Below the pieces are notes generated by a model. The model made no database searches. It was not told where the DNA came from and saw nothing but the letters and a program-made list of their open reading frames with translations. Both the position numbers and the translations under genes were made by a program. Of a DNA stretch of 64,000 nucleotides, positions 37,669 through 58,594 are shown piece by piece (the stretch's first letter is position 1; the number at the start of each line of letters is the position of its first letter). Origin of the DNA: an uncultured Candidatus Saccharibacteria bacterium (GTDB taxonomy: Bacteria; Patescibacteriota; Minisyncoccia; Phycocordibacterales; PALSA-1337); NCBI GenBank assembly GCA_964645315.1, contig CAZYBH010000003.1, positions 5,789 through 69,788 on the forward strand. Reading direction: 5' to 3'.

Positions 37669-37994
37669 TCCGGAGTAGCTCAGCGGTAGAGCAGTCGCCT
37701 GTGGAGTTCGCAGCTTCCACAAGAAATTGTGGATGACAAACGAGGTGAATTCGGGGAAACCCCAAATGTAAATAAGGGCAATCCCGAGCCAATCCCATCT
37801 TTGTGATGGGCAGGTGTAGAGACTATCCTTTCCAGGAGTAGTGCGAAGTGAAATATCTTCAAACGAAGCGCCTCGTCCCTAAATTATCAAGTTGGAAACT
37901 CGATAACATGGGAATGATATAGTCCGTCCCTATTAGTAATAGTAGGATAAGCGTAAGCGATTGGTCACAGGTTCGAATCCTGTCTCCGGAGCCC
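37669..37994 (+). tRNA. tRNA-Asn (GUU) interrupted by a group I intron; exons 37669..37702 and 37954..37994
   Basis: Exons splice to UCCGGAGUAGCUCAGCGGUAGAGCAGUCGCCUGU|UAAGCGAUUGGUCACAGGUUCGAAUCCUGUCUCCGGAGCC. U1-A72, G73 and anticodon loop CUGUUAA match bacterial tRNA-Asn (compare B. subtilis tRNA-Asn). Anticodon stem is GUCGC/GCGAU. Confidence 0.8.
37703..37953 (+). ncRNA. group I intron (~251 nt) in the tRNA-Asn anticodon loop, between anticodon positions 35 and 36
   Basis: Conserved core elements: P-like AAUUCGGGGAAA, Q-like AAUCCCGAGCC, R-like GGUGUAGAGACUAUCC, S-like AUGAUAUAGUCC (P7 GACUA/UAGUC). P9 hairpin with GUAA tetraloop. The 5' exon ends in U, which pairs with G37710 in a short P1. 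The intron ends in G (37953). Confidence 0.7.
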
Positions 37995-39614
37995 TAGTGA
38001 CGAAACCTCACATTTTGTGGGGTTTTGTCTTTTATTGCTTGATATTTTAGAGGTTCGAGCGCGCTCTAATTCTTCTTCGACCGCCTGACGACTTTTGATG
38101 ATCGTTTTAATGAAAGAATGGTAATTTACAAAGACCTTTTTGCCTTTTAGGGTGAGGTTCGAGCCAAGGCATGCGAGTATCGCTCTTTTGGCTTTATCAT
38201 CTCCTTTTTCAAACCAAATGTGGGCGTAGCAAGCGAAGTCAAAGGTCTGCTCGGTGAGTTCCACCCACTCCAATACCTCTCTGTTTTTCGTCTTCAATTC
38301 TTCTTCGAGTGCCAGTTTCTTTTTTACTATTCCAACCTTGAGCGTTTGGTATTCTTCATCAGTAATTATCGCTCGCTCACTGTTTGCTGGCGAGGTGAAG
38401 TTGAGTGTCAGTGACTGCAAATTCTTGGTGACTTCCTCAAGCTCTTTGTGCTTGCCTTTGAGGACCACAGAATCGCTGTCAACTTCTGTTTTTCGCAGTT
38501 CATGGAGGTGCTTGATTGCCCAGTCTTTGAATCTTTCCGAAATGGTGATCTCACTGAGCTTTTGTTTTATATCAAGTTCCAAGTTCTTAAGCTCTATCAC
38601 TTTCTCCGGACACTTCACGTCTACTTTTTTCTTGGTGCAATTGTAGTAAACGTAGTGGTGAACATTGCCGTTCTTACATCGCTTTACTTTCGCCTGTGCA
38701 GTGATACTACAGCCACACGTGCCGCATTTCATAAGCGAGGTGAAGGCAAAGCTGCGCTCTGGCCGAGGTCGTGGTTGCATGGTTCTTCCCATGATCTGTT
38801 GGACCTTATTGAATTCTTCTTCGGTTATCATGGCTTCATGTGCGCCTTTGTGCCATTCTCCGCTTTTGTAGGGATATTCAAACCAGCCGTAATAAAAGGG
38901 GTTGCTTAGGAGTGCATAGATGCCGCTTTTAGAAAGATGCTTGCCACCCATATTTCTTCGTTGATACGTTTTCAAATTCAACTCCTTACGAGCCACATCC
39001 CATATTTGAATTGTGCTGTAGTTACCGGTAAGCATGAGGTCAAAGAGTCTCTTTACCACAGGAAAACGTTCAGGGTCCTTCATGATGGTCTTGAATCCTT
39101 TTTCTCGGTCTGGTGTGCTCATATATCCCACAGGACACATGCTTGGTAGCCAGCCTTCTCGGACCTTCTTTGCAAGACCTCGCTTTACGTTTACTGATAA
39201 GTCTCTGATGTACTGGTTGGCCATGCCAAGCTCAACTTGCATCATGAGGACATTGTCCGTTGGGTAGTATGTTCGGCCGAATGTCACAATCTGTGCGATT
39301 GCACTTTGCTGTAGCATCCAGCTTATTTGTCCACCGTCCACAGGGTTGCGTGCAAGGCGGTCCAGTTTCCAACAGATGATTCCATTCGCTTCGCCTTTGT
39401 AAATTCTCTCAAGCATTTTGTTGAATACTGGTCTTCCTGGTTTCTTGGCCGATTGTGATTCGGTAAGGACCTCAACTATCGCCAAGCCTTGCTCTTCTGC
39501 AATCTTCAAGAGTTCATCTTTCTGAGCATCGATTGATGCCGCTTGTCTGTCTTCCGCCTCGCTTGATTTACGAGCGTAGAGGAAGTATTTGATTGTAGGT
39601 GTTTTATTATTCAT
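37965..39614 (-). CDS. large serine recombinase (resolvase/invertase-type catalytic domain + recombinase domain + zinc-ribbon)
   Basis: IKYFLYARKSSEAEDRQ...SIDAQ (catalytic Ser) and LDRLARN motifs. C-terminal Cys-rich region. The 3' end overlaps the last ~30 nt of the tRNA-Asn gene. Start taken at MNNKTPTIKY (39614). Confidence 0.85.
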   Translation of the reverse strand: MNNKTPTIKYFLYARKSSEAEDRQAASIDAQKDELLKIAEEQGLAIVEVLTESQSAKKPGRPVFNKMLERIYKGEANGIICWKLDRLARNPVDGGQISWMLQQSAIAQIVTFGRTYYPTDNVLMMQVELGMANQYIRDLSVNVKRGLAKKVREGWLPSMCPVGYMSTPDREKGFKTIMKDPERFPVVKRLFDLMLTGNYSTIQIWDVARKELNLKTYQRRNMGGKHLSKSGIYALLSNPFYYGWFEYPYKSGEWHKGAHEAMITEEEFNKVQQIMGRTMQPRPRPERSFAFTSLMKCGTCGCSITAQAKVKRCKNGNVHHYVYYNCTKKKVDVKCPEKVIELKNLELDIKQKLSEITISERFKDWAIKHLHELRKTEVDSDSVVLKGKHKELEEVTKNLQSLTLNFTSPANSERAIITDEEYQTLKVGIVKKKLALEEELKTKNREVLEWVELTEQTFDFACYAHIWFEKGDDKAKRAILACLGSNLTLKGKKVFVNYHSFIKTIIKSRQAVEEELERARTSKISSNKRQNPTKCEVSSLGLRRQDSNL

Positions 39615-40452
39615 ATGCGCTTTTAATGTTATCTTCCGACCGTTTTTCACCGTTTTTAAATGGTGGTTTTTGCTCTATGGCAGTTACATTATCGTCACTG
39701 CGTGGTTCCCGTAATTTTCCCGTTATTTCGGGAAAGGTCGTCTCACCGGGCTGACGAACGACAGTATCCCCAGAAGGGTCTCGAATAGCAACTGATTCCT
39801 GACTTCTTGGCATCTGCCATTTCTGCATTGTTCCCCTTAACACATCTCCAATGTGAGTTACAGAATTAGGAGAGTTTTTTCTTAGGTTAGTTAGAGTTTC
39901 ATTATCATCACTGCGATATGGTCGCTTATTGTAACTGCGAGGGCGTTGTTTTTGTAACTGCGGTGGTGCCTCGGATATCTTTATTTTTCGATTCCAGTTA
40001 GGGACCGGCAACCATAGCTCGCTCGCATGGAAAGTGTAGAGATTTACCATGTTGAACATACCATCAGCTCTCGTAACGCCGATAATGCCGTAGCCTTCGA
40101 GGATGCGAATTGCCTTAATGATGCTACTTCTGTTTTTACTGCCGACGAGTTCCTGAATGGTAGTGATACTTGGAAACGCCGCCTGGCTTTCGGTGTTGCA
40201 GTGGACCAAAAGCGCCATATATACTGACGTACATAACTTTGAGAGTGTTGCAAGATATCCGCCTTGCACATATTCGTTATCAACGAAGAACCTGCTCGAC
40301 TTATTCTTTTTGCGAAGTTTGGACCGATCTATCTTGTCATGCAGTCTGTTGAGGTAGGCTTTCTTTTGATTGTGGTTGAGGTCCTTTCTTGTTTTTGATT
40401 TGTCTCTTAGTATCCACTCGATCAATTCCTTGTCGTTTTCCATATTCTTCAA
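39607..40452 (-). CDS. hypothetical protein with central HTH-like segment (possible replication/regulatory protein)
   Basis: FPSITTIQELVGSKNRSSIIKAIRILEGYGII resembles a winged-helix/HTH. The N-terminal region overlaps the 40337..40600 ORF in another frame. Confidence 0.45.
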   Translation of the reverse strand: MKNMENDKELIEWILRDKSKTRKDLNHNQKKAYLNRLHDKIDRSKLRKKNKSSRFFVDNEYVQGGYLATLSKLCTSVYMALLVHCNTESQAAFPSITTIQELVGSKNRSSIIKAIRILEGYGIIGVTRADGMFNMVNLYTFHASELWLPVPNWNRKIKISEAPPQLQKQRPRSYNKRPYRSDDNETLTNLRKNSPNSVTHIGDVLRGTMQKWQMPRSQESVAIRDPSGDTVVRQPGETTFPEITGKLREPRSDDNVTAIEQKPPFKNGEKRSEDNIKSAYE

Positions 40453-40600
40453 GCCACGCTTTCTTTATTGGTCGGTAGACGAAGTTAAAAAGCGTGAGCA
40501 AATTAATTGCCTCATTAGCAAGAACGTCATCAGGAAAGACTGTGCCGGTTTCTTCCAGGTGAAGTTGTTTATATTCTTCTAGTGCGTGTTTGGTAAGCAT
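40337..40600 (-). CDS. hypothetical small protein (87 aa); possibly the 5' part of a frameshifted gene together with 39607..40452
   Basis: Track ORF. Overlaps the next ORF by 116 nt in a different frame. Confidence 0.3.
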   Translation of the reverse strand: MLTKHALEEYKQLHLEETGTVFPDDVLANEAINLLTLFNFVYRPIKKAWLEEYGKRQGIDRVDTKRQIKNKKGPQPQSKESLPQQTA

Positions 40601-40630
40601 AATGAGGGGTTCGACCTTTTGTATGAGGTA

Positions 40631-40669
40631 GTGCTCTTCCCAAGAAACAGAAAGAGCTGAGCCCCCATT
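40631..40669 (-). terminator. hairpin aaagagctgag...ctcagctcttt (11-bp stem)
   Basis: Seen directly, between the HerA 3' end and the next minus-strand gene. Confidence 0.4.
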
Positions 40670-40870
40670 GCAAGTTGACTCAGCTCTTTCCGTGCAATGG
40701 GTATCTTTATCCTAGAATCGAAATTCGTACTAAATGTAGGAATTACTTCTCTAAGATGATCTCATCGTACTGCTCTCAAACGGTAAAAAATGGTGCATTA
40801 CTTTGACCGCTTGAAATAAGGGTATTTTCGTGAATTTCGGTGGTTACTGTGCCATAGACGCAAAAACCCC

Positions 40871-40897
40871 TGAATAGGGGTTGAAAAGCGTACACAG
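40871..40897 (-). terminator. rho-independent terminator just after the HerA stop (cccccuauucagggg + U-run on the minus strand)
   Basis: + strand aaaaacccctgaataggggg. On the minus strand the hairpin is followed by uuuuug. Confidence 0.6.
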
Positions 40898-40914
40898 GGG
40901 CGTTTAGGGGGTAA

Positions 40915-42789
40915 TTAGGCTTTCTTCCACAGATCATCTAAATCTATCGTACCACTTTGAGGCCTTCGTTTCTTATCAAGAAGCTTAATTTTTAAAGAAA
41001 GTGGAAATTGAGTCATTTGTCCAGCAATAAAACAGCAACCTGTAGCAAGGTTTGAAATCGAGTCAAAAGAAAGCTTATCCAAATAACTTACCGCCTTATT
41101 AACTGACTTTAAATCATTTTCGTTCATCAATTTGTGAATAAAATAATTATGAAGCTGAGAAATTATGGTGGGAGAAATATCAGATGGTCTCTGACTAGCA
41201 ATTGTAAGAAAAACTCCAAACTTTCTACCTTCCTTTATTATTTCCTCAAACGTTTCTAGACGATAATCTTTCCAAGTTTCAGACTCTCTTACAGAGTTTT
41301 CAGATAAAATGTTATGTGCCTCGTCAATAATAATATGGAGGGATGTATTATTTTTATAAGTTTTTTTCTGATTCTCGTATAACTTTTTTAGAATGACTAA
41401 TGGCAAAGATTTTTTAATATCTCTATTGGCAGATTTTAGATCTATAACTACCAAGTTGTTGCCTTTTCCAAAAATATTCTTTTTAGCATTTGTACTAGTG
41501 TCAAAGACTTTCTGAATGCTTTTTTTGACACTTTCAAGTCTAGTTATGCAATGATAGACGTGGTCATCGTGAACTCTGTTATCTAGCAAATCATAAAGTA
41601 ATTGCATTCTTGCAAAGTCGAGGAACTTTTCAATTATATTGTCAGGAAATACATAAGTATCTGCCTGAGTATAAAATACTTGTGATTTATATTGCTCGTC
41701 AGTTATCTGGTCATAATCAGTAGTTCCACCACATTTAAAGTATGAATGGGTATTATGCCATTCAGGAATAACAAAATCTTGGTTGTCAGTTTCAATCTTA
41801 AGTATTTGTTTGTATCGATCTATACACAAAAATGCCAGTTCTTTATTTTTTAATTTCAAAATTCTGAGCGCTATTAACTTCAAGTTATTTTTGAAATAGT
41901 CATTAGAATTGTTTTCTTTTGTTATCTTTTTAAATAAGCTTATCGAGCGATTCAAAAATGGCTTTTGTGTTTTTTCACTAGCACCAGAAAGTATTGATAT
42001 AAGTTCAATATCAATAAAACCATTTTCGTTCAAAGGAACACGATTTTTGTTATTTATTTTTTCTAACTCAATTTCAGTATTAAGTTTATATACTTTTTTC
42101 TTTTTACTAAGAACATCTGAAGATGAGTATTCACCATTAAAATCAATAAATATAAACTTGGATTTGGATTTAAATTTTTCATTAAGATTTTCTAATCCAA
42201 ATAGTTCTGCATACATTTTTGCAAGAGTATTTGATTTACCAGACCCTGTATTGCCAAAAATACCAATATGACCTGCAAATAGTTTTTTAGCTGAAATTGA
42301 AATATCTTGAGTCTCTTCATCAATCAGTGATCCAAGGGTAACGGAAAGCTCTTTTTCATCAGAAAGCTGATGTAATATTTCAAATTCTTCTCTAGAAAGA
42401 AGTTTACATTCACTACCAATTAGAGGCATTTCTTTGATACCGTGTTGAAAGTTAAAATCGCTATCATAGAATCCAAAAACTGAAACATTGAGAAATCGGC
42501 TTATCTTCTTATTCTCATTTGTATATTTTTTCTTAGTTTGATATCTATCCTCTTCGAGATACTCACCCTCGACTTTACAAATTATTTCAGTAAAACCTTT
42601 AACTATTTTCACATAGTTGGATAGCCCAACAGAAACATTTTTTATTGTTCTACCTTTAAAAAATAGATGAGGGAGATTCTTGTCATTCTTTACCTTAACA
42701 ACAATATCTTTGCCCTTAACACTAAATACACTGCCAATGGTAAATACGGAATTATCAACTAGTCTTTCATGTAAATTAAAGTTGTTCAT
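40915..42789 (-). CDS. herA: HerA-like (DUF87/FtsK-HerA superfamily) ATPase, SIR2-HerA defense system component
   Basis: Walker A IGIFGNTGSGKSNTL and Walker B LHIIIDEAHNIL (DEAH). Start taken at MNNFNLHERL (42789), which overlaps the SIR2 stop by 14 nt. Confidence 0.8.
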   Translation of the reverse strand: MNNFNLHERLVDNSVFTIGSVFSVKGKDIVVKVKNDKNLPHLFFKGRTIKNVSVGLSNYVKIVKGFTEIICKVEGEYLEEDRYQTKKKYTNENKKISRFLNVSVFGFYDSDFNFQHGIKEMPLIGSECKLLSREEFEILHQLSDEKELSVTLGSLIDEETQDISISAKKLFAGHIGIFGNTGSGKSNTLAKMYAELFGLENLNEKFKSKSKFIFIDFNGEYSSSDVLSKKKKVYKLNTEIELEKINNKNRVPLNENGFIDIELISILSGASEKTQKPFLNRSISLFKKITKENNSNDYFKNNLKLIALRILKLKNKELAFLCIDRYKQILKIETDNQDFVIPEWHNTHSYFKCGGTTDYDQITDEQYKSQVFYTQADTYVFPDNIIEKFLDFARMQLLYDLLDNRVHDDHVYHCITRLESVKKSIQKVFDTSTNAKKNIFGKGNNLVVIDLKSANRDIKKSLPLVILKKLYENQKKTYKNNTSLHIIIDEAHNILSENSVRESETWKDYRLETFEEIIKEGRKFGVFLTIASQRPSDISPTIISQLHNYFIHKLMNENDLKSVNKAVSYLDKLSFDSISNLATGCCFIAGQMTQFPLSLKIKLLDKKRRPQSGTIDLDDLWKKA

Positions 42790-43789
42790 CGTCTTTATCC
42801 GGTTCAAGGACCTCTTGTTCTTTATTTGTGAATATACCAGAAAGGAATTCTGTGCTTTTTTCAAATGGCAAATTATTTTCTACATAGAAGTTTGACTTTT
42901 TCTTTTCCTCTAGATCATCTACCACTTCATCGTATTCTTTGTGATAAAGATAAACTACTATTAGGGTCGGATTGTTCTTCATTACACCGTAAAGTAACTC
43001 TCTTATATGTTTATCTTTAAGAGAAAATCCTAATATAAACAAAACACTATTTTCTTTTTCCAGCTCTAACGTAAACTTCCTTAGCATGGAAGCGTAATTA
43101 GTATCTAGAACTGTTTCAAGGTGTTTTTCTGCATTTGGATTGATGACAGCAACTTGTTTATACCCTGTAGCAAAATCATTCCCGGTTTTACTATCCAGAT
43201 CATCAGCAATATGCGAACCATTTGAATAGATGATTTTTTCCTCTTTTGTCTTCCAAGAAAGTGAACCGTGAAGTTTAATGATATTGAAAAGTGGAATGTC
43301 GGAAGTGTTATCAAATTGAAGGCTCTTATATTTTTGAATTTTGTTAAAATTTGCCACGCTAAATACTGAATTGATTTGCCCGGCAAATCCATCATTGTAC
43401 GGTATACCTAAACGCTCACAGGCATCTTCTATAAACATGTCAAAGTTCGTGCTGAAAATATTGACTTGTTTATTTACGATATGTAATGATCGACGGGAAA
43501 TAGTATCAGCCCAAAAATTTAAAAATGTATCATAGTTCTGTTTGGTTTTAGTAAGCTTACCTTGTTCTGCCACATCCACCTCAAAGGTTGAATTTAGAAT
43601 AGCTTTTGATTTGCGGATGATCTTATAATAATCTTTTTGTGCGACCTCTTTGGTAGCATCATTATTCATTCGGTTTTCAATGTCTTGCAGGGTCGAAAGA
43701 TAGTCAAGAGAACAACCAGAACCAATAAGTAGATTTATGTGGCCACTTTGAATTATTTCTTTGAGTTCTTTTTTATCGATTTTTTTCAT
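42776..43789 (-). CDS. SIR2-like NADase domain protein, SIR2-HerA defense system component
   Basis: INLLIGSGCS (GAGIS-like), FSTNFDMF (TQNID-like) and IIKLHGSLSW (catalytic HG) motifs. Lies immediately upstream of HerA in the same orientation. Confidence 0.8.
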   Translation of the reverse strand: MKKIDKKELKEIIQSGHINLLIGSGCSLDYLSTLQDIENRMNNDATKEVAQKDYYKIIRKSKAILNSTFEVDVAEQGKLTKTKQNYDTFLNFWADTISRRSLHIVNKQVNIFSTNFDMFIEDACERLGIPYNDGFAGQINSVFSVANFNKIQKYKSLQFDNTSDIPLFNIIKLHGSLSWKTKEEKIIYSNGSHIADDLDSKTGNDFATGYKQVAVINPNAEKHLETVLDTNYASMLRKFTLELEKENSVLFILGFSLKDKHIRELLYGVMKNNPTLIVVYLYHKEYDEVVDDLEEKKKSNFYVENNLPFEKSTEFLSGIFTNKEQEVLEPDKDDEQL

Positions 43790-46101
43790 ACTTTTAATTT
43801 GACCCACTCACTCCAATCACCACGTTCGCATTTTTCCCAGTTGTAAGTAGATTCTTGGTTTAATGTCCAATCTCCATTTCTCTCAATCACAACACCACCA
43901 AAAAGCTTTTTATTCTTCTGGGTCTTTATGTATTGGTACAAAGCCTCAGCCTTAGCTTTTGTGTAAGTTTTACCATCACGATCACCTGAATCCTTTACTT
44001 CAAATATACCGATCTTTCCATCAGTGAATTGGACCAGATAGTCCGGATAGAAAGTATAGATAGCACCAGAGTATTCATACTTCACGCCAAAGTATTCCTG
44101 TTTGTTTTCTCCATTTTTCCACCACCAAGTTATTTTTGAGCTATTATCATTCAAAAACTTCTCAAAAGATTTCTCGGGTAGGGATCGGTCAATGTTTAGG
44201 TAGCATGGCTGATAGGCATACTTTTTGGTAGGAACAATTTCATCAGTAAATTCGTTATAAAAAAGCTCTATAGGGAGTTCAAAAGCATATTTCTTTTCGC
44301 TTTCTTCTACTCGCTTTCGGACCTCAGCCTCTTTGACCGTCTTGTATTCATCGACTGCCTTAGTAAGAATCTTTTCAATCGCTGGACGATTGTCTTTGTG
44401 CATACAAAGCTTTTGAATGAGGAGTATTTCCTCATGCCAATCTTCTGAATTGAGGTATTTTCTGAACCACAAATAAATAGCAGTCTTTACGCTTGGAATA
44501 GAGCGCTTAACATTTCTAAATGGACCGAGCTGTGACTTAATCATTTGCTCAAAGAAAATCTGCAATTCATCAGCAGCAACACTAAGCTTTGCCATAGCAG
44601 TGGGATCTATATTTCCTTGAAGTTCATCAAAGTTTTTAGCACTGATATGAGTGTCAGCAATAATTTGTTGCTGGTACTTTTCAAGCTCAACATCAATACC
44701 CATATTCTTGAGTGACGTCTTGATCTTCACCAGTTTCTCACCATCTTCTATACCAAGTTCTCTGTTTACTACCTTTTCAAATACCGGCGTAAAGCTTGAG
44801 GTGATGTCTCCGTAATCAGCACGTGCTTTATAGTAAGAATCAATTTTGAGCGGCTTATACTCCTTAACTCTATTAGCCTTTAGATGTTTGATTATGTTTG
44901 GATTGTATTCTTCTTTCTTAACTGAAATAGATTCCAAGTTTGTATAGATGTAACCACGATTAAGAGCCTCATTTTCATAATGCTTTTGTTCTGGCATACG
45001 TAAGATTCGTCCGACAGTCTGTATTTCAAAAACAATATTCGAAGATTCTCTAAACTTCACAAGAATATGAGCACGAGGACAGTCCCATCCAGTATCAATT
45101 GCTTGTTTGAATATCAAAAACTCAATCTGATTGTCCGATTCAGAAATCCACTCGATAGTGTCTGATTTTTGTTCAGCAAGCCAAATAGCAAGCTTTCCAT
45201 TTTTCTCTGTAATACCCTTATCACCAAGAAACTTTTTAACAGCATCAATCTTTTGATCACCAGCCTCGGATGTAGGAATCTGTATTAAGACAAGAGGATT
45301 AATATCAGAATCTTCTTTTGCAAAAGCCTTCTTAAGTTCAAGACGTTTTTTATATGCCGCCTCTAAGACTGCTGTCTGTGAATCATCTTCTGATTTTGCA
45401 ATCTTCTCAATATCCTCATTGATGATGAGCTCTTTCTTAATCATCCCTTCTTCGATAACGTCTTTTGGATTCACCTTTACCAATCCAGCGCGAGTTTCAA
45501 CAATATCTTCAGCTGTAATTTTTATACTTGGTGTGGCACTCATTTCAATCGTTACATCGGCAGCAATAAGCTCACGAAGTTCCTGAGCGCGACCTGTAGA
45601 TGCGTTGGTGTGACTCTCATCAATAATAAGAATTATCTTTCTCTGTTCTTTAGTTTTTTCAAGTACATCACGGAAATTAAGTTTCTCACCATCTTTCATG
45701 GCGAGGTTTTTCCAATCACCAGACTTACCATCCTTGGCACGTAGTTTTTCCCAGTTTGCCACTACGACTTCATTCTGAACAATACGCTCTCTACCACCAC
45801 TAAATTCACCCTCAACAAGTGAGACACGAGGAAAACCCCCGAAGATTCGCTCGAGAGATCGCTTACTCTGTCCATGAAGATCACCTTTACCAATACTCAT
45901 CCAAATAAAACAAAGATCTTCGTTTGGAAGTTCTTTTATAAGACTCTCTATAAAAATAGCAGTCATGACAGTCTTGCCTGATCCGGTAGGGGCTTGAAAT
46001 ACACAAACTTCACCAGGACCGTCAAAATCCAAAAGTTTAACTGTCGTGTCAACAAGCTGGTTGACTGCTTTTTCTTGATAGGGTTTTAAATTAATACTCA
46101 T
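43786..46101 (-). CDS. res: Type III restriction enzyme Res subunit (SF2 helicase + C-terminal PD-(D/E)xK nuclease)
   Basis: FQAPTGSGKT (motif I), IIDESH (motif II), MSATP (motif III), QTVGRILR (motif VI), and C-terminal PDYLVQFTDGKIGIFEVKD. Confidence 0.85.
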   Translation of the reverse strand: MSINLKPYQEKAVNQLVDTTVKLLDFDGPGEVCVFQAPTGSGKTVMTAIFIESLIKELPNEDLCFIWMSIGKGDLHGQSKRSLERIFGGFPRVSLVEGEFSGGRERIVQNEVVVANWEKLRAKDGKSGDWKNLAMKDGEKLNFRDVLEKTKEQRKIILIIDESHTNASTGRAQELRELIAADVTIEMSATPSIKITAEDIVETRAGLVKVNPKDVIEEGMIKKELIINEDIEKIAKSEDDSQTAVLEAAYKKRLELKKAFAKEDSDINPLVLIQIPTSEAGDQKIDAVKKFLGDKGITEKNGKLAIWLAEQKSDTIEWISESDNQIEFLIFKQAIDTGWDCPRAHILVKFRESSNIVFEIQTVGRILRMPEQKHYENEALNRGYIYTNLESISVKKEEYNPNIIKHLKANRVKEYKPLKIDSYYKARADYGDITSSFTPVFEKVVNRELGIEDGEKLVKIKTSLKNMGIDVELEKYQQQIIADTHISAKNFDELQGNIDPTAMAKLSVAADELQIFFEQMIKSQLGPFRNVKRSIPSVKTAIYLWFRKYLNSEDWHEEILLIQKLCMHKDNRPAIEKILTKAVDEYKTVKEAEVRKRVEESEKKYAFELPIELFYNEFTDEIVPTKKYAYQPCYLNIDRSLPEKSFEKFLNDNSSKITWWWKNGENKQEYFGVKYEYSGAIYTFYPDYLVQFTDGKIGIFEVKDSGDRDGKTYTKAKAEALYQYIKTQKNKKLFGGVVIERNGDWTLNQESTYNWEKCERGDWSEWVKLKV

Positions 46102-47920
46102 AAATTTGTTTGTATACGTCTAGAATCTTTTGTGGAATTGGCTCGACCGTAACATCTTTCCATCCACTAAAATCTTTTTTATTTAATCCAAGAGGATCAA
46201 GAGTAAAACAGTAGAGAATCTTTTCTCCTTCGATCTTACTTAAATCCTTTTTAAGTTCTGATAAGGCCTTCCGATCTAGGGAATAGTAGGCGGCAAGAAC
46301 CCTATTACCTTTCTGGAATACTCTATAATCATCAGTTGTTTTTACTTCATCAAAAATACCTTCACGTAGACAAAGCATTTCTGTACATTCCTTTGTCATA
46401 CGGATCTTCAAATCATCTTTGTTTGCAGTTTTCTTGATGAATTTAGTTTTGAAGTATTTTAGAGATCCTACACCAGTATTTGTGAGAACATTGTTTAATC
46501 TAGGATATGTTTTTTCGAGACAAATATTTTCTTCATTATTTGTACATAAAATAAATTTATGTTGCGTACCTTTATCCTTATTAAGCTCTACAACCGCATG
46601 GCCTGTTGATCCACTTCCTGCAAAAAAGTCTAGAATTGTCGCATTATCATCTGAAACAAAATGAATTAGTTGCTTTATCAATCTAATTGGTTTTTTACCA
46701 TTCTTAAAATCAATCCCACCTTCTTTAGCAACGTTACCCATATCAAGATAAAAGCCTGGCCACCAGTCACCCCTGATAGTAGTTACACCGTAAGTTTGGT
46801 AATAGTCATCAGCCTTTCTAACTTTATCTGATAAGCGAATTCTTTGTTTATATTCTCCCTTACCGTTATATCCAACTAAATAAGATCGATCATTTGAGCC
46901 ATACTCAATTAAGATACCCTCTTTAACTTTAGATAGAACTTCTTTGTCTTTTATCTCTACAGTATCGTGAATACGAACAATCTGATCTGCTTTTTTATTT
47001 ATAAAATCTCTTACTTCATCAAGTTTTGCATAAGCATCAGAGATTTGATTATTAGTCATCGATCTCTTTCCTTTTGAATCTTTAGCTAAATTCAAAAAAC
47101 ATAATTTTTCAAATATCTTGTTATCCGCACATAAAACGCTTGTGAGTGATGTCTCTGAATAAGTTCCATCCGTATTTTTATTTATAAACAGGGAGTAGTG
47201 ATTGTCGTATTCAATCGGATCGTACAAAACATTTTTTCCGATAGTCTTTCTTCCATCTTTTGAATACACAAGAATATACTCGGCATTTTTTACTATATTA
47301 CCCATCTTTGCTGATCTTACTTTTTGACCTTGGACCGTAGACATCTGAACGTGCAAAGTGGTAACAAAATTATTTAAACCAAAAACCTCATCGCACAGTA
47401 GTCTAAGCTGAGACTGTTCATTGTCATCTATCGAAATAAAAATAACTCCAGTCTCTCTCAGTAGATTTTTTGCTAATCGCAACCTTTTTGACATGAAAGA
47501 CAACCATTTGCTGTGTTTATATTCGTCCTCACTATCAACATAATTGTCGTTATAAATAAAATCCCTATTACCAGTGTTGTAGGGTGGGTCAATATAAATA
47601 ACATCAACTTTTCCTTGATGAGTGAAATTTAAGACAGAGAGTGCATGGTAGTTATCGCCCTCAATCAATATGTTTACTGGTCTAGTGTCGTCTTTGTCAG
47701 TAATTTCTTTTCCTTTTACTTCCTTAAGAACTGGTAGTGCATTTTCGGCATCTTTCTCGAACTGTTCTTTCACCTTATCTTCATCCCAGATAAGTCCATA
47801 TTTCTTTCGAGATTCAAGCTTTTCTACAATTTTAATTAGATCCTCTTTGCTAAGGTTGGAATAATCTTTCTTTGAATTCTTATTGGTTGCAATGGGATTC
47901 ATTACACAACACTTTACCAT
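46091..47920 (-). CDS. mod: Type III R-M Mod subunit (beta-class N6-adenine DNA methyltransferase)
   Basis: DPPY (motif IV: IYIDPPYNTGN) precedes motif I FxGxG (ILDFFAGSGSTG). Overlaps the res start by 11 nt. An alternative start is MNPIATN at 47902. Confidence 0.85.
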   Translation of the reverse strand: MVKCCVMNPIATNKNSKKDYSNLSKEDLIKIVEKLESRKKYGLIWDEDKVKEQFEKDAENALPVLKEVKGKEITDKDDTRPVNILIEGDNYHALSVLNFTHQGKVDVIYIDPPYNTGNRDFIYNDNYVDSEDEYKHSKWLSFMSKRLRLAKNLLRETGVIFISIDDNEQSQLRLLCDEVFGLNNFVTTLHVQMSTVQGQKVRSAKMGNIVKNAEYILVYSKDGRKTIGKNVLYDPIEYDNHYSLFINKNTDGTYSETSLTSVLCADNKIFEKLCFLNLAKDSKGKRSMTNNQISDAYAKLDEVRDFINKKADQIVRIHDTVEIKDKEVLSKVKEGILIEYGSNDRSYLVGYNGKGEYKQRIRLSDKVRKADDYYQTYGVTTIRGDWWPGFYLDMGNVAKEGGIDFKNGKKPIRLIKQLIHFVSDDNATILDFFAGSGSTGHAVVELNKDKGTQHKFILCTNNEENICLEKTYPRLNNVLTNTGVGSLKYFKTKFIKKTANKDDLKIRMTKECTEMLCLREGIFDEVKTTDDYRVFQKGNRVLAAYYSLDRKALSELKKDLSKIEGEKILYCFTLDPLGLNKKDFSGWKDVTVEPIPQKILDVYKQIYEY

Positions 47921-48045
47921 TTTTTGCCCTAAAAATAAAGATTTTTTGAGTTCATGAATTATTTAACATCAAGCTCAATAATAGCCTTATAAACAAAGAT
48001 TATTTCACCTCTCTCTCTTCAGACACGATTTAACATTTTGTATCT

Positions 48046-48100
48046 AAATTTAAAGTTGGGGGCTTAACTTTAAATTTGCCGATTCCAAATTAAAAGTTAC
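48046..48100. promoter_or_regulatory. three alternating half-sites AAATTTAAAGTT / AACTTTAAATTT / AAATTAAAAGTT, ~130-180 bp upstream of mod; near-identical element at 62459..62512
   Basis: Half-sites at 48046..48057, 48066..48077 and 48087..48098. The last overlaps the stop codon of the Zn-ribbon gene. Confidence 0.55.
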
Positions 48101-48390
48101 TGTCCGGTCCACTCTTGCTCACAAACCGCACATTGTACATAGCCGGTATGTTCAAAATTGTTGGTAAATCCATTAGATTGATACGTTTTTGTTGTCTCAT
48201 CCCAGTAGAACTCGTCATCGATAATAGTTTCTACAAGTTTACGATCAGAGCCACAAAACTGACAGGTGTGTTTTGGATATTTTTTAGTCTTTCTTTCCAT
48301 ACGGACGATCATTGATCGAAGGCTGGAAGAAGTCAATGAAAAGCTAAAACCGCCCATTTCGAGACGGTTTCGGATACTCCTTCTACGCAT
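48097..48390 (-). CDS. small zinc-ribbon protein (CxxC ... CxxC)
   Basis: CQFCGS ... CAVCEQ. 97 aa. Confidence 0.5.
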   Translation of the reverse strand: MRRRSIRNRLEMGGFSFSLTSSSLRSMIVRMERKTKKYPKHTCQFCGSDRKLVETIIDDEFYWDETTKTYQSNGFTNNFEHTGYVQCAVCEQEWTGQ

Positions 48391-48422
48391 GGCAGACGAG
48401 ATAATATAAATATAACTTTCTT

Positions 48423-48770
48423 TTATTCAATCACAAAATCTAGCTGTTCCTCTGGAATGCCTAATGATCGGCCATAATCGCAGGCATCCTTCCATGTTTC
48501 CTTTTGATTGTACTTAAACTCAAAGACTTTGTCTTTAAATACAGCGATTACATCGTTACCGTTCCAAAAATGCATATACCACTTGCCGGACTTGATATAT
48601 CGAGAAACTTTTTGAATATCATCCTTAGTAACTTTTACTGTATACAAATGCCATCGATCGGCAGGATTCTCATCTTTTGAAATTCTAAGACCACTGATAT
48701 CTAAGTCATTAATAATTCTATTATCTTCAAGACTTTCTTCTACGATTGTGCCCTTATAAGTTATGTTCAT
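48423..48770 (-). CDS. hypothetical protein (115 aa)
   Basis: Track ORF, tightly packed between neighbouring genes on the same strand. Confidence 0.45.
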   Translation of the reverse strand: MNITYKGTIVEESLEDNRIINDLDISGLRISKDENPADRWHLYTVKVTKDDIQKVSRYIKSGKWYMHFWNGNDVIAVFKDKVFEFKYNQKETWKDACDYGRSLGIPEEQLDFVIE

Positions 48771-48771
48771 G

Positions 48772-49518
48772 TTATTTATTTAAATTAAAAGTAAAACCAT
48801 TTCTACTCCAAAACCAAAGAGGTGGATGCATATCAATAGGATCAATACCGCTGTTTTTTAGTAAATCTCTCCACCGTTCTGAAATTGCATCTTTTGTTAA
48901 ATTGGTTGCCTCTTCTGGAGAAATTACACCTAGTTTTACTGAGCATTGAGTAATGTGAGTATCGGGTGCAATTTCTATTTGGTCCCGATTATTTAGACCA
49001 ATTTTACCGTAAGTACTTATAATAAATGACCAATAATTAAATATCTTCGGACCAGATAAATAAGGAAATCCTTTCTTATGCTCAACCTTAACAAGCTGTT
49101 TTAAATTAATAAAATCACTGTCTATTGTTTCAAAGAATTTTGTGAACGAACCCCATTCTTCATGAATTGTCTTTGCGATTATTCTCCATGTATTCACGTG
49201 TTTATTAGGTTGAAGTGCAACTTTATATTTCATTAGTGCCTTACGAACCTCATCTTCCGAAGCCTTAGAGACAGCTTTTACATCAAATACAAATCTAGTG
49301 TCGGCGTCATTAAAAGTCTTGAGCGCAGATTCCCATAATTTATAACTATCTCGCTGATAGTTTAAGGCCATTGGTAAAGTAAAATATGCGATTCTAAATT
49401 CTTTGTCTGTATCAGAAAAGTCTGGACTTGAGTCTTCTGGCATAACAGTTTGTCCGAGCTTACCTGATTTAAAAGCATCAATGAGTGTTTTGCAATTTTT
49501 GAGTAAGTCTTTATTCAT
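48772..49518 (-). CDS. HhH-GPD superfamily DNA glycosylase-like protein
   Basis: GFPYLSGPKIFNYWSFII (HhH-like hairpin region) followed by IEIAPDTHITQCSVKLGV. Compare the VDTHVxRVxxRLG catalytic Asp region of Endo III/AlkA-type glycosylases. Confidence 0.5.
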   Translation of the reverse strand: MNKDLLKNCKTLIDAFKSGKLGQTVMPEDSSPDFSDTDKEFRIAYFTLPMALNYQRDSYKLWESALKTFNDADTRFVFDVKAVSKASEDEVRKALMKYKVALQPNKHVNTWRIIAKTIHEEWGSFTKFFETIDSDFINLKQLVKVEHKKGFPYLSGPKIFNYWSFIISTYGKIGLNNRDQIEIAPDTHITQCSVKLGVISPEEATNLTKDAISERWRDLLKNSGIDPIDMHPPLWFWSRNGFTFNLNK

Positions 49519-49573
49519 TAGTTAATTGCAATTTTATCATTTTTGACTCTTTTTTGCTAAAATAGTAATCACT

Positions 49574-50107
49574 ATGACATTAATCTACATACTCACTGGA
49601 ATCATTGTTGTTATTGGTGTTGTTGTTGGACTTCTGAAAGATAAGTTTGATTTTATAGACGATAAACCAAAATATAACTATAAACGTCGCAATTGGTTTC
49701 TAACTAAAGCTGAACATGAATTTTATGATGCACTTGTGAAAGTGGTCGGTAACGATTACATCATCTTTGCTCAAGTTCATTTACCAACACTTCTTGAACA
49801 TAAGGTCGTAGGACAAAACTGGAATGCAGCATTCAGACATGTGAGTCAAAAGTCTGTAGACTTCGTACTTTGTGACAAAGCGTACATTTCTCCAAAGCTT
49901 GCTATTGAGCTTGATGATAAGTCACATGAAAGGCCTGATCGTGTGGACCGAGATATTGAAGTTGAGCGTATTCTTAAGGGCGCAGGTCTGCCACTTATAA
50001 GGATCCAAAATCATGGAACATTTAATCCTCAAGAGTTAGCTCAAAAGATTAGGATCGCTATAAATCCTAGCGATACTTCGCCATCTCTTTCTCAGTCGGC
50101 CTCGTAA
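49574..50107 (+). CDS. DUF2726-like protein with N-terminal TM helix (predicted restriction-endonuclease-like fold)
   Basis: FLTKAEHEFYDAL ... YIIFAQV ... VDFVLCD ... IELDDKSH, resembling DUF2726. Confidence 0.55.
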   Translation: MTLIYILTGIIVVIGVVVGLLKDKFDFIDDKPKYNYKRRNWFLTKAEHEFYDALVKVVGNDYIIFAQVHLPTLLEHKVVGQNWNAAFRHVSQKSVDFVLCDKAYISPKLAIELDDKSHERPDRVDRDIEVERILKGAGLPLIRIQNHGTFNPQELAQKIRIAINPSDTSPSLSQSAS

Positions 50108-50121
50108 TTCCAAAGAAACCC

Positions 50122-50191
50122 TGCTTGATATTCGGTAGCCAAATATGGGCTTTATTCGTCTTCCAAAAGGTTCCTATTTCTCGTGCAATGT
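50122..50191. repeat. ~70-bp direct repeat, copy 1 (copy 2 at 50415..50483, ~90% identical)
   Basis: tgcttgatatt.ggtagccaaatatggg..ttattc...ttccaaaaggttcctatttctcgtgcaatgt is present twice. Each copy ends at an ATG. Confidence 0.75.
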
Positions 50192-50217
50192 CGAGCATTA
50201 TTATTAAATTTTACTCT

Positions 50218-50400: not shown

Positions 50401-50414
50401 ATAATACATAACCT

Positions 50415-50483
50415 TGCTTGATATTTGTAGCCAAATATGGGCCTTATTCTCTTTCCAAAAGGTTCCTATTTCTCGTGCAATGT
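50415..50483. repeat. ~70-bp direct repeat, copy 2
   Basis: See 50122..50191. The terminal ATG (50479) opens a 35-codon ORF, MLQMKNRTSIMLEAILLSHHLLFNPHVALNSFKYF. Confidence 0.75.
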
Positions 50484-50727
50484 TGCAAATGAAAAATCGC
50501 ACATCAATAATGCTAGAAGCCATTCTTCTTTCTCATCATCTCCTTTTCAACCCGCATGTTGCCTTGAATTCGTTCAAATATTTCTAAGAGATTTTTCCCA
50601 ACCTCTTACAATTTCCAAAGACTGTTCCTCAAGTTCAGCCAGATGTACCAACTTAAGTGGTCGAGATAATTAGGATTCTTTCGCCTTTTCTATTGCCATG
50701 ATTAAAAAATCTGTATCTCTCATAACT

Positions 50728-58414: not shown

Positions 58415-58418
58415 ACTT

Positions 58419-58592: not shown

Positions 58593-58594
58593 AA

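What the first reader, a model, noticed from the sequence alone, without database searches (positions are those of the whole stretch)
37965..40600. Large serine recombinase overlapping the 3' end of tRNA-Asn: left junction of an integrated island of at least 26 kb
The recombinase ORF converges on the tRNA and its last ~10 codons overlap the tRNA T-arm and acceptor 3' strand (37965..37994). An integrative element providing a replacement tRNA 3' end is the classic explanation. Upstream on the same strand are a putative HTH protein and an 87-aa ORF that overlap in different frames (39607..40452 versus 40337..40600), possibly one gene with a frameshift. Serine integrases leave only 2-bp crossover duplications, so no long direct repeat is expected. 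I did not find a second copy of the tRNA 3' end in the window, so the right boundary is unresolved.
Basis: partly seen in the sequence, partly recalled or inferred. Interest (0 to 1): 0.55.

Follow-up and report, generated by a model that had tools for sequence, protein, structure and literature searches.

The report
tRNA-targeting serine-integrase defence island, split gene
A 12.2-kb mobile defence island sits exactly at the 3' end of an intron-containing tRNA-Asn gene in a candidate-phyla bacterium, and inserting there split its own serine-integrase gene, leaving the last 41 codons at the island's far end.

Summary
A 549-aa large serine recombinase (LSR; 37965..39614, minus strand) runs antisense into the last 27 nt of a genuine tRNA-Asn(GUU). 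That tRNA is interrupted by a 251-nt group I intron.

- **Size:** the island is 12,204 bp (GAGC cores at 37989-37992 and 50193-50196), not at least 26 kb.
- **tRNA 3' end:** the T-arm and acceptor are host DNA. The crossover lies in the last 3 nt of the tRNA plus one trailer base. What the element supplies is a new trailer and an intrinsic terminator, encoded antisense within the LSR's last codons.
- **Split gene:** the LSR gene spans attP. The 41 codons lost on integration lie at the far end (50067..50195, minus strand). Rejoining the parts gives a 583-aa ORF that is 82% identical end to end to a 582-aa homologue.

In 56 of 75 evaluable loci (the window plus 74 relatives, mostly Patescibacteria), the ORF end overlaps a convergent tRNA 3' end. 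Relatives with the same left-flank synteny have empty sites. The cargo is SIR2-HerA plus a type III R-M system.

The closest precedent is the Dehalococcoides ssrA islands with DsiB, so I rate this a new variant of a known kind.

The parts
37669..37702 (+). tRNA-Asn(GUU) exon 1 (34 nt, ends ...CCTGT inside the anticodon)
   Evidence: Joined exons are identical to the intron-less tRNA-Asn of L088.
37703..37953 (+). Group I intron (251 nt) between anticodon nucleotides 35 and 36. It belongs to the host target gene, not to the island.
   Evidence: Rfam RF00028, 73 bits, E=1.3e-16. Boundaries are fixed by the intron-less allele in L088. By inspection: U.G pair at the 5' splice site (exon CUGU with intron GCAG) and a terminal G.
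37954..37991 (+). tRNA-Asn exon 2. The T-arm and acceptor 3' strand form the host B half-site of attB/attL.
   Evidence: The sequence varies with the host and pairs with each host's 5' acceptor strand, while the element side stays constant. In L092 a 19-nt partial copy (CGAATCCTGTCTCCGGAGC) is enough to serve as the target.
37989..37992 (.). attL core GAGC (G71-A72-G73 of the tRNA plus the first trailer base). The crossover lies within it.
   Evidence: GAGC is the only sequence shared by the two junctions. Every detached tail copy in other loci is preceded by GCTC on the LSR strand (L028: ACTC). Independent Logan contigs break exactly after this core.
37993..38040 (+). P' arm of the element plus an intrinsic terminator in the tRNA sense (stem 37999-38029, then a T-run). 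It is encoded antisense to LSR codons ...NKRQNPTKCEVSS.
   Evidence: It is the top terminator-like hit of the scan (14-bp stem). A hairpin plus TTTTGTCTTTT sits at the same place in 39 distinct elements, with about 30 different stem sequences. Mean dG is -16.5 kcal/mol against -9.3 for other windows of the same genes.
37965..39614 (-). Large serine recombinase, integrated isoform (549 aa). The last 7 residues (RRQDSNL) and the stop codon are encoded by the antisense strand of the host tRNA.
   Evidence: Pfam Resolvase, Recombinase and Zn_ribbon_recom. PHROG 95 integrase, 2.6e-67. Catalytic-region residues R15, S17, R86 and R89 are invariant in 36 homologues.
39607..40452 (-). HTH_36 DNA-binding protein (about 278 aa from ATG 40443), part of the conserved module. 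Role is inferred only: regulator or replication initiator.
   Evidence: Pfam HTH_36, 5.4e-07. Conserved next to the LSR in at least 20 loci.
40337..40600 (-). 87-aa ORF with a conserved 53-aa N-terminal core. It is a module gene and a candidate recombination directionality factor or regulator (inference only).
   Evidence: tblastn hits in more than 35 elements, with the motif ...EA.NLLTLF..VYRPIKK.WL.EY. No Pfam, PHROG, NCBIfam or PADLOC match.
40858..40926 (-). Conserved non-coding boundary block between cargo and module: GTGTACGCTTTTC, a small hairpin and T5.
   Evidence: 82-86% nucleotide identity in 10 elements. The hairpin shows compensatory changes. The overlapping 53-aa ORF has no protein-level conservation.
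40915..43789 (-). Cargo: SIR2-HerA defence pair (HerA 40915..42789; SIR2 42776..43789)
   Evidence: PADLOC HerA 7.5e-169 and SIR2 1e-49. Pfam DUF87 and SIR2_2. Gene starts are taken from the Logan gene calls.
43786..47902 (-). Cargo: type III restriction-modification system (Res 43786..46101; Mod 46091..47902)
   Evidence: PADLOC REase_III 3.5e-18 and MTase_III 4.1e-85. Pfam ResIII and N6_N4_Mtase.
48097..49518 (-). Cargo: three ORFs of unknown function (97, 115 and 248 aa)
   Evidence: Called as genes in the independent Logan assembly. No significant family match.
49574..50107 (+). DUF2726 (nuclease-related fold) gene near the far end. The same gene recurs near the far end of other elements.
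   Evidence: Pfam DUF2726, 4.9e-29. 84% aa identity in L023 and 52-54% in L065 and L077, in the same relative position.
50067..50195 (-). Detached 3' end of the LSR gene (P arm plus 41 codons and the stop): L-DIAREIGTFWKTNKAHIWLPNIKQGFFGITRPTEKEMAKYR*
   Evidence: It aligns without gaps to residues 541-582 of the full-length homologue P0005 (55% identity, E=2e-16). LSR body plus this segment gives a 583-aa ORF, 82.1% identical to P0005 over 581 aa. Homologous detached tails lie upstream of the LSR, on the same strand, in L005, L023, L028 and L030.
50193..50196 (.). attR core GAGC. Sequence from 50197 onward is B'-side DNA.
   Evidence: Similarity to the far ends of L005, L030 and L023 stops exactly at ...ATGTCGAGC. 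Coordinates verified.
50410..50486 (-). Degenerate second copy of the tail/P arm that has lost its core. It is probably the scar of an older element, and ancestral host DNA may resume at 50487.
   Evidence: Direct repeat of 50110-50197. The core is mutated. Position 50487 gives the best anchored match (12 of 16) to the native B' of the empty-site locus L101 and of L092 (full tRNA plus native terminator; LSR 174 nt further on). This is suggestive only.

Best explanation
Window 37989-50196 is a 12.2-kb integrative island. It was inserted by its own large serine recombinase (LSR) at the extreme 3' end of the host tRNA-Asn gene.

**Shown**
- attB consists of the tRNA T-arm and acceptor (B arm), a GAGC core (tRNA nucleotides 71-73 plus one trailer base), and an A/T-rich trailer (B').
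- attP lies inside the 3' end of the LSR gene. On the free (or tandem) form the gene encodes about 583 aa. Integration cuts it at the core.
- After integration, the body stays at attL and reads on for 7 codons into the antisense strand of the tRNA (RRQDSNL*).
- The last 41 codons end up 12.2 kb away, at attR.
- The tRNA stays intact. Its native trailer and terminator are displaced, and the element supplies a new intrinsic terminator encoded antisense within the LSR's C-terminal codons.
- The conserved backbone is LSR, an HTH_36 protein, a small 87-aa protein, a boundary terminator, and the DUF2726 gene with the tail segment at the far end.
- The variable cargo here is SIR2-HerA plus a type III R-M system.

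**Inferred**
- Excision by attL x attR recombination would restore the full-length gene.
- The two isoforms may differ in activity or stability.
- The 87-aa or the HTH protein may act as directionality factor or regulator.
- The element has no capsid or conjugation genes, so it is an integrative (possibly mobilisable) element, not a prophage.
For: **Junction mapping.** Fourteen close elements are near-identical up to ...CACTAGGGCTC(C). They then diverge into host-specific tRNA sequence.

**Far end.** A block conserved in L005, L030 and L023 stops at ...ATGTCGAGC. It encodes a peptide that matches the C-terminus of P0005 (E=2e-16). The reconstructed 583-aa ORF is 82% identical to P0005 end to end. 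Detached tails are always on the LSR strand, upstream of the LSR, and start exactly at the GCTC core (L028: ACTC). Fused forms with an attP-type junction occur in L084, L008, L022, L020 and L076.

**Family-wide tRNA association.** 56 of 75 evaluable loci (the window plus 74 relatives) show it, for Asn, Ser, His, Gln, Trp, Thr, Lys, Leu and Ile tRNAs.

**Mobility.**
- LSRs 83-97% identical sit in hosts whose flanking core proteins are only about 40-65% identical, and the cargo differs between them.
- Relatives with the same left-flank synteny have empty sites with native terminators (L101, L094, L097, L093).
- Independent assemblies branch exactly after the core.

**Composition.** The flanks are 39.1% and 39.4% GC. 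The module is 44.1% and the cargo 34.2%.

**Terminator.**

**Cargo.**

**Not a phage.** There are only 4 weak relatives in IMG/VR and no structural genes.
Against: - No empty site or circular junction of this particular host and element was found. The reconstructed attB 25-mer had no hit in the metagenome contigs, and the attP 18-mer had none in the viral contigs.
- The right host flank could not be confirmed by synteny, because the relatives are too divergent or their contigs end at the tRNA.
- The sequence right after attR (ATTATTATT...) is followed 213 nt later by a second, degenerate tail copy. The element may therefore have entered next to the remnant of an older one, and the true ancestral host junction may be at about 50487.
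- The P and P' arms show little obvious inverted symmetry in this element. Searches for a mirror-image P arm found nothing.
- Activity of the recombinase and any functional difference between the isoforms are untested.
- The break of the Logan contig at 50190 is equally explained by a 31-mer shared with copy 2.
Confidence: 0.8

Rival explanations
1. The island is at least 26 kb and runs past the end of the window. It carries its own copy of the tRNA 3' end, which replaces the host's, as classic tRNA-integrating islands do.
For: The ORF does overlap the T-arm and acceptor. Genes beyond 50.5 kb also look accessory: a Type ISP-like methyltransferase, DUF3800 and an ABC transporter.
Against: - The T-arm and acceptor differ between hosts while the element side is constant.
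- There is no displaced tRNA 3' copy.
- The far end, with the core and the missing 41 codons, is at 50067-50196.
- GC content returns to the left-flank value to the right of 50.5 kb.
Confidence: 0.04
2. The tail-coding segments at 50067-50195 and 50410-50486 are leftovers of the 3' ends of older, deleted LSR genes in a tandem array. They are not the other half of this element's gene. On this reading the true right boundary of the present element is undefined.
For: Two tail copies lie 300 bp apart in the window and three in L030. Tandem arrays exist in L011, L020 and L023.
Against: - Random deletion would not leave every copy starting exactly at the GCTC core, with unrelated A/T-rich DNA on the other side.
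- Copy 1 keeps an intact core and an intact 41-codon frame with a conserved stop. Copy 2 has lost both.
- In single-element loci (L005, L028) one tail lies 7.7-10 kb upstream, at plausible element lengths.
Confidence: 0.1
3. The region is an integrated prophage, or a remnant of one.
For: The LSR matches PHROG 95 'integrase'.
Against: No capsid, terminase, tail or lysis genes are present in 12.2 kb. The family is almost absent from 2.9 million viral contigs. Related elements carry metabolic or defence cargo.
Confidence: 0.03
4. The element is real but now fixed. The truncated integrated isoform is inactive, and the overlap with the tRNA has no functional meaning.
For: The tRNA-encoded tails vary in length and sequence. 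No circular form of this element was found.
Against: - The 549-aa ORF is intact and 93-97% identical to copies in other hosts.
- The detached tail keeps its frame and its core.
- The assembly graph branches exactly at the core in two samples.
- This rival is about activity, so it is not exclusive of the best explanation.
Confidence: 0.15

Closest known systems
Dehalococcoides ssrA-specific genomic islands with the serine recombinase DsiB (McMurdie et al. 2011, PMC3146451; read)
   Same: - An LSR of about 540 aa sits next to attL on the reverse strand, and its ORF always runs across attL into the tRNA-like target gene.
- The islands have no transfer genes and carry variable cargo.
- Islands and scars occur in tandem.
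- The authors already guessed that the gene may be complete only on the circular element, or next to another island that carries 'the requisite 3' gene fragment'.
   Different: - The target here is the extreme 3' end of true tRNAs (mainly Asn). There it is the T-loop of tmRNA.
- Here there is a 4-nt core and no direct repeat. There the repeat is 20 bp.
- The module differs: LSR, HTH_36 and an 87-aa protein here, against DsiB, DsiA, RecF, ParB and Mom.
- The missing 3' fragment is actually located and matched to full-length homologues here.
- An antisense terminator is embedded in the gene here.
- The hosts are mostly Patescibacteria.
- Sequence homology to DsiB was not tested, because no DsiB sequence was available.
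Canonical large serine integrases (phiC31, Bxb1, A118/LI, TP901-1) and SCC Ccr recombinases
   Same: - Same domain set: Resolvase, Recombinase and a zinc ribbon.
- Short att sites with a tiny shared core and no long repeats.
- Like Ccr at rlmH/orfX, insertion at the 3' end of a conserved gene leaves that gene intact.
- NCBIfam gives sub-threshold matches to XisF and CcrB/A/C.
   Different: - By my own knowledge, the known examples target protein-coding genes or intergenic sites, and their attP lies outside the integrase ORF.
- Here attP is inside the ORF, and the target is a tRNA end.
- All NCBIfam scores are far below the cut-offs (112.7 against 375, and 82.5 against 900), so this LSR is not a member of those named equivalogs.
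Classic tRNA-integrating genomic islands with tyrosine integrases (Williams 2002 sublocation scheme, as cited in PMC12884075; my own knowledge)
   Same: - They use a tRNA 3' end as a conserved, single-copy landing site and leave the tRNA functional.
- They carry defence cargo.
- The integrase gene lies next to the tRNA junction.
   Different: - The recombinase family and chemistry are different.
- There is no duplicated tRNA segment at the far end.
- The element does not rebuild the tRNA 3' part. It only supplies the trailer and terminator.
SSV-type archaeal tyrosine integrases, whose attP lies within the int gene (review PMC8371274; found, abstract only)
   Same: Integration partitions the recombinase gene, and excision restores it.
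   Different: - Those are tyrosine recombinases of archaeal viruses.
- There the gene is cut so that no intact integrase remains (my own knowledge).
- Here 540 of 583 residues, including all the recognised domains, stay in one ORF.
Tycheposons and cryptic elements of Prochlorococcus (preprint 10.1101/2020.12.28.424599)
   Same: They are small integrative elements with adaptive or defence cargo, described in a study of elements at tRNA genes. A minority (27 of 937) carry an LSR instead of a tyrosine recombinase.
   Different: That paper gives no att or junction analysis for its LSR elements in the text I read. The phylum is different. No relationship between the proteins was tested.

Membership tests
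Large serine recombinase (serine integrase) | N-terminal resolvase catalytic domain with the catalytic Ser and conserved Arg residues | tested here: met
   PF00239, 2.3e-22. R15, S17, R86 and R89 are invariant in 36 homologues.
Large serine recombinase (serine integrase) | Recombinase domain plus a zinc-ribbon domain C-terminal to the catalytic domain | tested here: met
   PF07508, 2e-10. PF13408, 3e-06, which is above its cut-off. Cysteines C297, C300, C326 and C335 are invariant.
Large serine recombinase (serine integrase) | Short att sites that share only a few bases at the crossover, with no long direct repeats flanking the element | tested here: met
   Only GAGC is common to attL and attR. 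There is no second tRNA 3' copy.
Large serine recombinase (serine integrase) | Catalyses attP x attB recombination | not testable with these tools
   This needs an in vitro or in vivo assay.
Classic tRNA-replacing genomic island (tyrosine-integrase type) | Tyrosine recombinase | tested here: not met
   The only recombinase in 37.9-50.2 kb is of the serine family.
Classic tRNA-replacing genomic island (tyrosine-integrase type) | The element carries the tRNA 3' segment, and a displaced copy forms a direct repeat at the far end | tested here: not met
   The T-arm and acceptor are host-specific. There is no repeat with up to 3 mismatches in 29 nt.
Dehalococcoides-type ssrA-GI (DsiB) integrative elements | An LSR of about 540 aa next to attL, with its ORF running across attL into the target RNA gene | tested here: met
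   The description of the family is from PMC3146451.
Dehalococcoides-type ssrA-GI (DsiB) integrative elements | Target is the ssrA T-loop, with a 20-bp direct repeat | tested here: not met
   The target is the end of tRNA-Asn, the core is 4 nt, and there is no repeat.
Dehalococcoides-type ssrA-GI (DsiB) integrative elements | Six-gene integration module (DsiB, DsiA small serine recombinase, RecF-like, ParB, Mom, large protein) | tested here: not met
   The module here is LSR, HTH_36 and an 87-aa protein. There are no second serine recombinase, ParB or Mom domains.
Dehalococcoides-type ssrA-GI (DsiB) integrative elements | Sequence homology of the recombinase to DsiB | not tested
   No DsiB sequence could be obtained with the tools.
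SIR2-HerA anti-phage defence system (cargo) | Adjacent SIR2-domain and HerA-like ATPase genes | tested here: met
   PADLOC HerA 7.5e-169 and SIR2 1e-49. The genes overlap in one operon, 40915-43789.
Type III restriction-modification (cargo) | Mod methyltransferase plus Res helicase-nuclease in one operon | tested here: met
   PADLOC MTase_III 4.1e-85 and REase_III 3.5e-18. The genes are adjacent and overlapping, 43786-47902.
Group I intron (in the target tRNA) | Match to the group I covariance model above the curated threshold, with precise exon junctions | tested here: met
   RF00028, 73 bits against 50. Removing 37703-37953 gives a tRNA identical to the intron-less allele in L088. Six further tRNA-Asn loci reach the gathering score.
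Group I intron (in the target tRNA) | Self-splicing activity | not testable with these tools
   This needs an in vitro splicing assay.

The most novel reading that the evidence does not exclude
Splitting the LSR gene by integration may be a built-in state switch. The free element would make a 583-aa integrase with a conserved 41-residue tail. The integrated element would make a 549-aa isoform whose tail is replaced by a few residues encoded by the tRNA antisense strand. The two isoforms would differ in directionality, stability or need for a partner such as the 87-aa protein. The recombinase would then 'know' whether it is integrated without a separate sensor. The same few dozen bases would also serve as P' arm, recombinase C-terminal codons and terminator for the host tRNA. 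This would be a general property of a large, mostly Patescibacteria-borne clade of tRNA-end-specific serine integrases with compact, predictable attB sites.
Probability: 0.3. Interest if true: 0.75.

Novelty: new variant of a known kind. Interest (0 to 1): 0.55.

Why it matters
**For integrase biology.** Serine integrases are the workhorses of large-cargo genome engineering, and their natural targets are generally described as protein-coding or intergenic sites (my own knowledge). This is a broad clade: 570 relatives were confirmed in one scan, and 56 of 75 evaluable loci (the window plus 74 relatives) show the overlap. Its attB is the highly conserved 3' end of a tRNA, so target sites can be predicted from the tRNA sequence alone. 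The attP, attB, attL and attR sites can be read off genomes to the nucleotide.

**For the Dehalococcoides question.** This locus answers a question left open for the Dehalococcoides ssrA islands in 2011: where the 'missing' 3' end of the recombinase gene is. It shows that the gene is restored on excision or in tandem arrays.

**For Patescibacteria.** It shows how defence systems (SIR2-HerA, type III R-M) move between genera in a phylum with tiny genomes and few recognised mobile elements.

**For annotation.** Intron-split tRNA genes hide both the tRNA and the island junction from standard annotation tools.

Tried and rejected
- **Second copy of the tRNA 3' end.** I searched the window with a 29-mer and a 15-mer, allowing up to 3 mismatches. 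There was none.
- **Mirror-image P arm.** I looked for CACTAGGG, GTCACTAGGGCTCC and GTTCTGAAC-N-GGAG at the far end. Nothing was found, so this element's P arm is not a simple inverted copy of P'.
- **The 13-nt match.** I first took TTGCTTGATATTT (38035 versus 50114 and 50416) for the att core. I rejected this once the junction alignment placed the core at GAGC.
- **The invariant R520-T521 ('ARTS').** I first suspected a DNA-level, T-loop-like constraint. The Arg codon varies (CGA or AGA), so the constraint is on the protein.
- **The break of the Logan contig at 50190.** I first read it as an island end. It is equally explained by a 31-mer shared with copy 2.
- **Exact junction searches.** The reconstructed attB had 0 hits in metagenome contigs. 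The attP junction had 0 hits in viral contigs.
- **Right-flank synteny.** The relatives are too divergent, or their contigs end at the tRNA.
- **RNAalifold on an ungapped alignment of the terminators.** It gave no consensus because the stems are in different registers. I replaced it with per-sequence folding against own-gene background.
- **Circularity of L084 and other short contigs.** There is no terminal overlap.
- **The 53-aa ORF under the conserved block 40858-40926.** It shows no protein-level conservation.
- **tmRNA or Rfam identity for the GC-rich element downstream of empty sites.** None was found.
- **One failed exact look-up.** The LSR from the GTG start is not on record. The ATG-start version is.

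Full report
**1. The observation**

The ORF at 37965..39650 (minus strand) is a large serine recombinase (LSR). It has Resolvase (2.3e-22), Recombinase (2e-10) and Zn_ribbon_recom (3e-06) domains, and it matches the PHROG 95 integrase family at 2.6e-67. The gene caller's start is ATG 39614, giving 549 aa, and that exact protein is on record in an independent Logan assembly.

Default ARAGORN finds no tRNA near it. The reason is a group I intron (Rfam RF00028, 73 bits against a gathering score of 50) that splits the gene. Exon 1 is 37669-37702, the intron is 37703-37953 (251 nt), and exon 2 is 37954-37991. A genus-level relative (L088; fmt 66% identical) carries an intron-less tRNA-Asn(GTT) that is base-for-base identical to the joined exons. 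This fixes the identity as Asn and places the intron between anticodon nucleotides 35 and 36. The 'Thr-CGT' call from ARAGORN -i is an artefact.

The LSR stop codon (37965-37967) lies in the T-stem, and the ORF overlaps the tRNA over 37965-37991.

**2. The overlap is a property of the family**

In an alignment of 36 homologues (48-96% identical), the otherwise variable C-termini keep ending in ...DSN(L/P/Q).... This is GAT-TCG-AAC, the reverse complement of the T-loop.

I fetched 80 loci from reference genomes. Nearly all are Patescibacteria MAGs, with a few from Ignavibacteria, Omnitrophota, Clostridia and other groups. I extended each ORF to its stop. In 56 of 75 evaluable loci (the window plus 74 of these), the ORF end overlaps the 3' end of a convergent tRNA. 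This is mostly Asn(GTT), but also Ser, His, Gln, Trp, Thr, Lys, Leu and Ile.

Of the other 19 loci, at least eight continue into non-tRNA sequence (section 4). Five of these carry the tail fused to the LSR. Three more lie at contig ends.

**3. Where the junction is**

I aligned the DNA around the stop codon for the window and 14 close relatives. The sequence is near-identical up to ...GTTTCGTCACTAGGGCTC(C). It then diverges into each host's own acceptor and T-arm.

The T-arm is therefore host DNA. The element contributes at most the last three tRNA nucleotides, which are the same in all these tRNAs. This contradicts the 'replacement 3' end' idea.

In L092 a 19-nt partial copy of the tRNA end is fused to the element. 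About 19 nt is therefore enough to act as the B half-site.

**4. The right end and the split gene**

A block at 50110-50197, with a degenerate second copy at 50410-50483, is conserved in L005, L030 and partly L023, several kb upstream of their LSRs. The similarity stops at ...ATGTCGAGC.

On the minus strand this block encodes L-DIAREIGTFWKTNKAHIWLPNIKQGFFGITRPTEKEMAKYR*. It aligns without gaps to the last 42 residues of P0005, a 582-aa homologue (55% identity, E=2e-16). Joining the LSR body (up to the core) to this segment gives a 583-aa ORF that is 82.1% identical to P0005 over 581 residues.

A profile of such tails finds two kinds of copy:
- Detached copies, always upstream of the LSR, on the same strand, and starting exactly at the core GCTC (L028: ACTC). 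These occur in the window, L005, L023, L028 and L030.
- Copies fused to the LSR, in L008, L020, L022, L076 and L084. L084 carries an exact attP-type junction.

L011, L020 and L023 have the host genes DUF167 and HPF 8-10 kb beyond the LSR. This indicates tandem elements.

The gene therefore spans attP, and integration cuts it. The two cores are GAGC at 37989-37992 and at 50193-50196, so the element is 12,204 bp.

The GC content agrees with these boundaries. The flanks are 39.1% and 39.4%, the module 44.1% and the cargo 34.2%.

**5. Mobility**

The host side of the junction (tRNA-Asn, DUF167, HPF, fmt, def, PriA) is syntenic in many relatives, but at only 40-65% amino-acid identity. The LSRs in those same genomes are 83-97% identical to the window's, and the cargo differs between them.

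A scan for this tRNA allele followed by GAGC and then any base other than C returned 12 loci.
- L101, L094, L097 and L093 have the same left-flank synteny and no LSR. In L101 and L094 the tRNA is followed at once by a native terminator hairpin.
- L091 and L095 carry LSRs only 25-29% identical to the window's, and these overlap the same tRNA end by about 25 nt. The habit therefore extends to a wider clade.

In two Logan assemblies the contigs break exactly after the core, with a k-1 overlap. That is what reads with a different continuation after GAGC would produce. It is indirect evidence only.

**6. The embedded terminator**

Directly after the core, in the tRNA sense, lies a 14-bp hairpin followed by a T-run (37999-38040). 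It is the strongest terminator-like site in the region.

It is encoded antisense to the LSR codons ...NKRQNPTKCEVSS. Thirty-nine distinct elements have a hairpin at this position, with about 30 different stem sequences, followed by TTTTGTCTTTT. Mean dG is -16.5 kcal/mol, against -9.3 for other windows of the same genes.

Empty sites have their own terminator at this position. The element therefore replaces the tRNA's trailer and terminator, not its 3' end.

**7. The rest of the element**
- *Module genes.* The HTH_36 protein and the 87-aa ORF are conserved module genes. The N-terminal 53 residues of the 87-aa ORF are conserved in more than 35 elements. Its variable C-terminus overlaps the conserved start of the HTH gene in the same +1 register in about 10 assemblies. 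In L084 the two are called as separate adjacent genes. They are two genes, not a frameshifted one.
- *Boundary block.* A conserved non-coding block (40858-40926) with a small hairpin and a T-run marks the border between cargo and module.
- *Cargo.* SIR2-HerA (PADLOC 1e-49 and 7.5e-169), a type III R-M system (MTase_III 4.1e-85, REase_III 3.5e-18), three ORFs of unknown function and a DUF2726 gene.
- *Not a phage.* There are no phage structural or conjugation genes, and only four weak relatives among the viral contigs.

**8. The second tail copy**

The copy at 50410-50486 has lost the core. The sequence right after it (AAATGAAAAAT...) gives the best anchored match, 12 of 16, to the native B' sequences that follow the tRNA in L101 (an empty site) and in L092.

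I read this copy as the scar of an older element, with ancestral host DNA resuming at about 50487. This is suggestive only.

**9. Comparison with what is known**

The closest precedent is the Dehalococcoides ssrA islands (PMC3146451). [quoted passage not shown] The islands occur in tandem, and the authors speculate that the gene is complete only on the circle or beside another island.

The differences here are:
- the targets are true tRNA ends, not the tmRNA T-loop;
- there is a 4-nt core and no 20-bp repeat;
- the accessory module is different;
- the missing fragment has been located;
- a terminator is embedded in the gene.

Other context from the literature:
- Splitting of an integrase gene by its own attP is known for SSV-type tyrosine integrases (PMC8371274).
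- LSRs were noted in 27 of 937 Prochlorococcus elements.
- Group I introns in CPR tRNAs are mentioned only anecdotally (PMC8172020).
- I found no description of this LSR clade or of its tRNA specificity. The library is limited, however.

**10. Verdict**

The finding is a real mobile element. It is a new variant of a known kind.

The most interesting open point is whether the change of isoform on integration has a regulatory role. I put that at about 0.3.

Noticed in passing
window 37703-37953: A 251-nt group I intron splits the anticodon (GU|U) of tRNA-Asn. Intron-bearing and intron-less alleles of the same tRNA both occur among relatives. The intron reaches Rfam's gathering score in L005, L006, L015, L016, L092 and L093, and it is absent from L088, L094, L097 and L100. 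Default tRNA finders miss the gene.
   Followed up: partly
window 50218-50400 and 50410-50486: A small ORF (MKKIILSV..., signal-peptide-like start with an R/S/Y-rich tail) lies between attR and a degenerate second copy of the LSR tail/P arm. The pair is probably the remnant of an older element.
   Followed up: partly
window 40858-40926 (minus strand): A non-coding block (GTGTACGCTTTTC, a small hairpin and T5) is conserved at 82-86% in 10 elements at the border between cargo and module. The overlapping 53-aa ORF is not conserved as protein. It may be a terminator, a promoter or an operator.
   Followed up: partly
L092 1395-1525; L100 4378-4440; L094 about 4090-4150: A GC-rich element of about 130 nt, with an antisense T-arm-like motif (GACAGGATTCGAAC), lies just downstream of tRNA-Asn and its terminator in several relatives. 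Neither ARAGORN (tRNA and tmRNA) nor Rfam calls it.
   Followed up: partly
L100 4268-4330; L090 10252-10350: Scars next to tRNA-Asn: a P'-like TAAGTGACG stretch followed by a duplicated 3' half of the tRNA. They may be traces of a different integration or excision history at the same site.
   Followed up: no
L091 193-1884; L095 314-1864: LSRs only 25-29% identical to the window's overlap the same tRNA-Asn end by about 25 nt. They also have a hairpin and T-run just past the core. Targeting of tRNA ends may be older than the family studied here.
   Followed up: no
L087 8560-9015; L088 7637-8092: In the closest sampled relatives a PemK-family toxin gene sits between DUF167 and tRNA-Asn. It is absent from the window. 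The L087 contig ends 2 nt past the intron insertion site, which hints at intron presence/absence polymorphism in that sample.
   Followed up: no
window 57740-62383: Outside the island lie a 1026-aa protein with N6_Mtase and Type_ISP_C domains (5.8e-87), which lacks the nuclease and helicase part of full Type ISP enzymes, and a DUF3800 protein. A GC-rich stretch (46-49%) at 53-55 kb covers an ABC-transporter gene. The right flank may hold other accessory DNA.
   Followed up: no
L030 1839, 4780, 5365: Three detached LSR tail copies of two sequence types (FRTIDW-type and GTFWK-type) lie upstream of one LSR. This suggests repeated insertions by different element lineages at one site.
   Followed up: no
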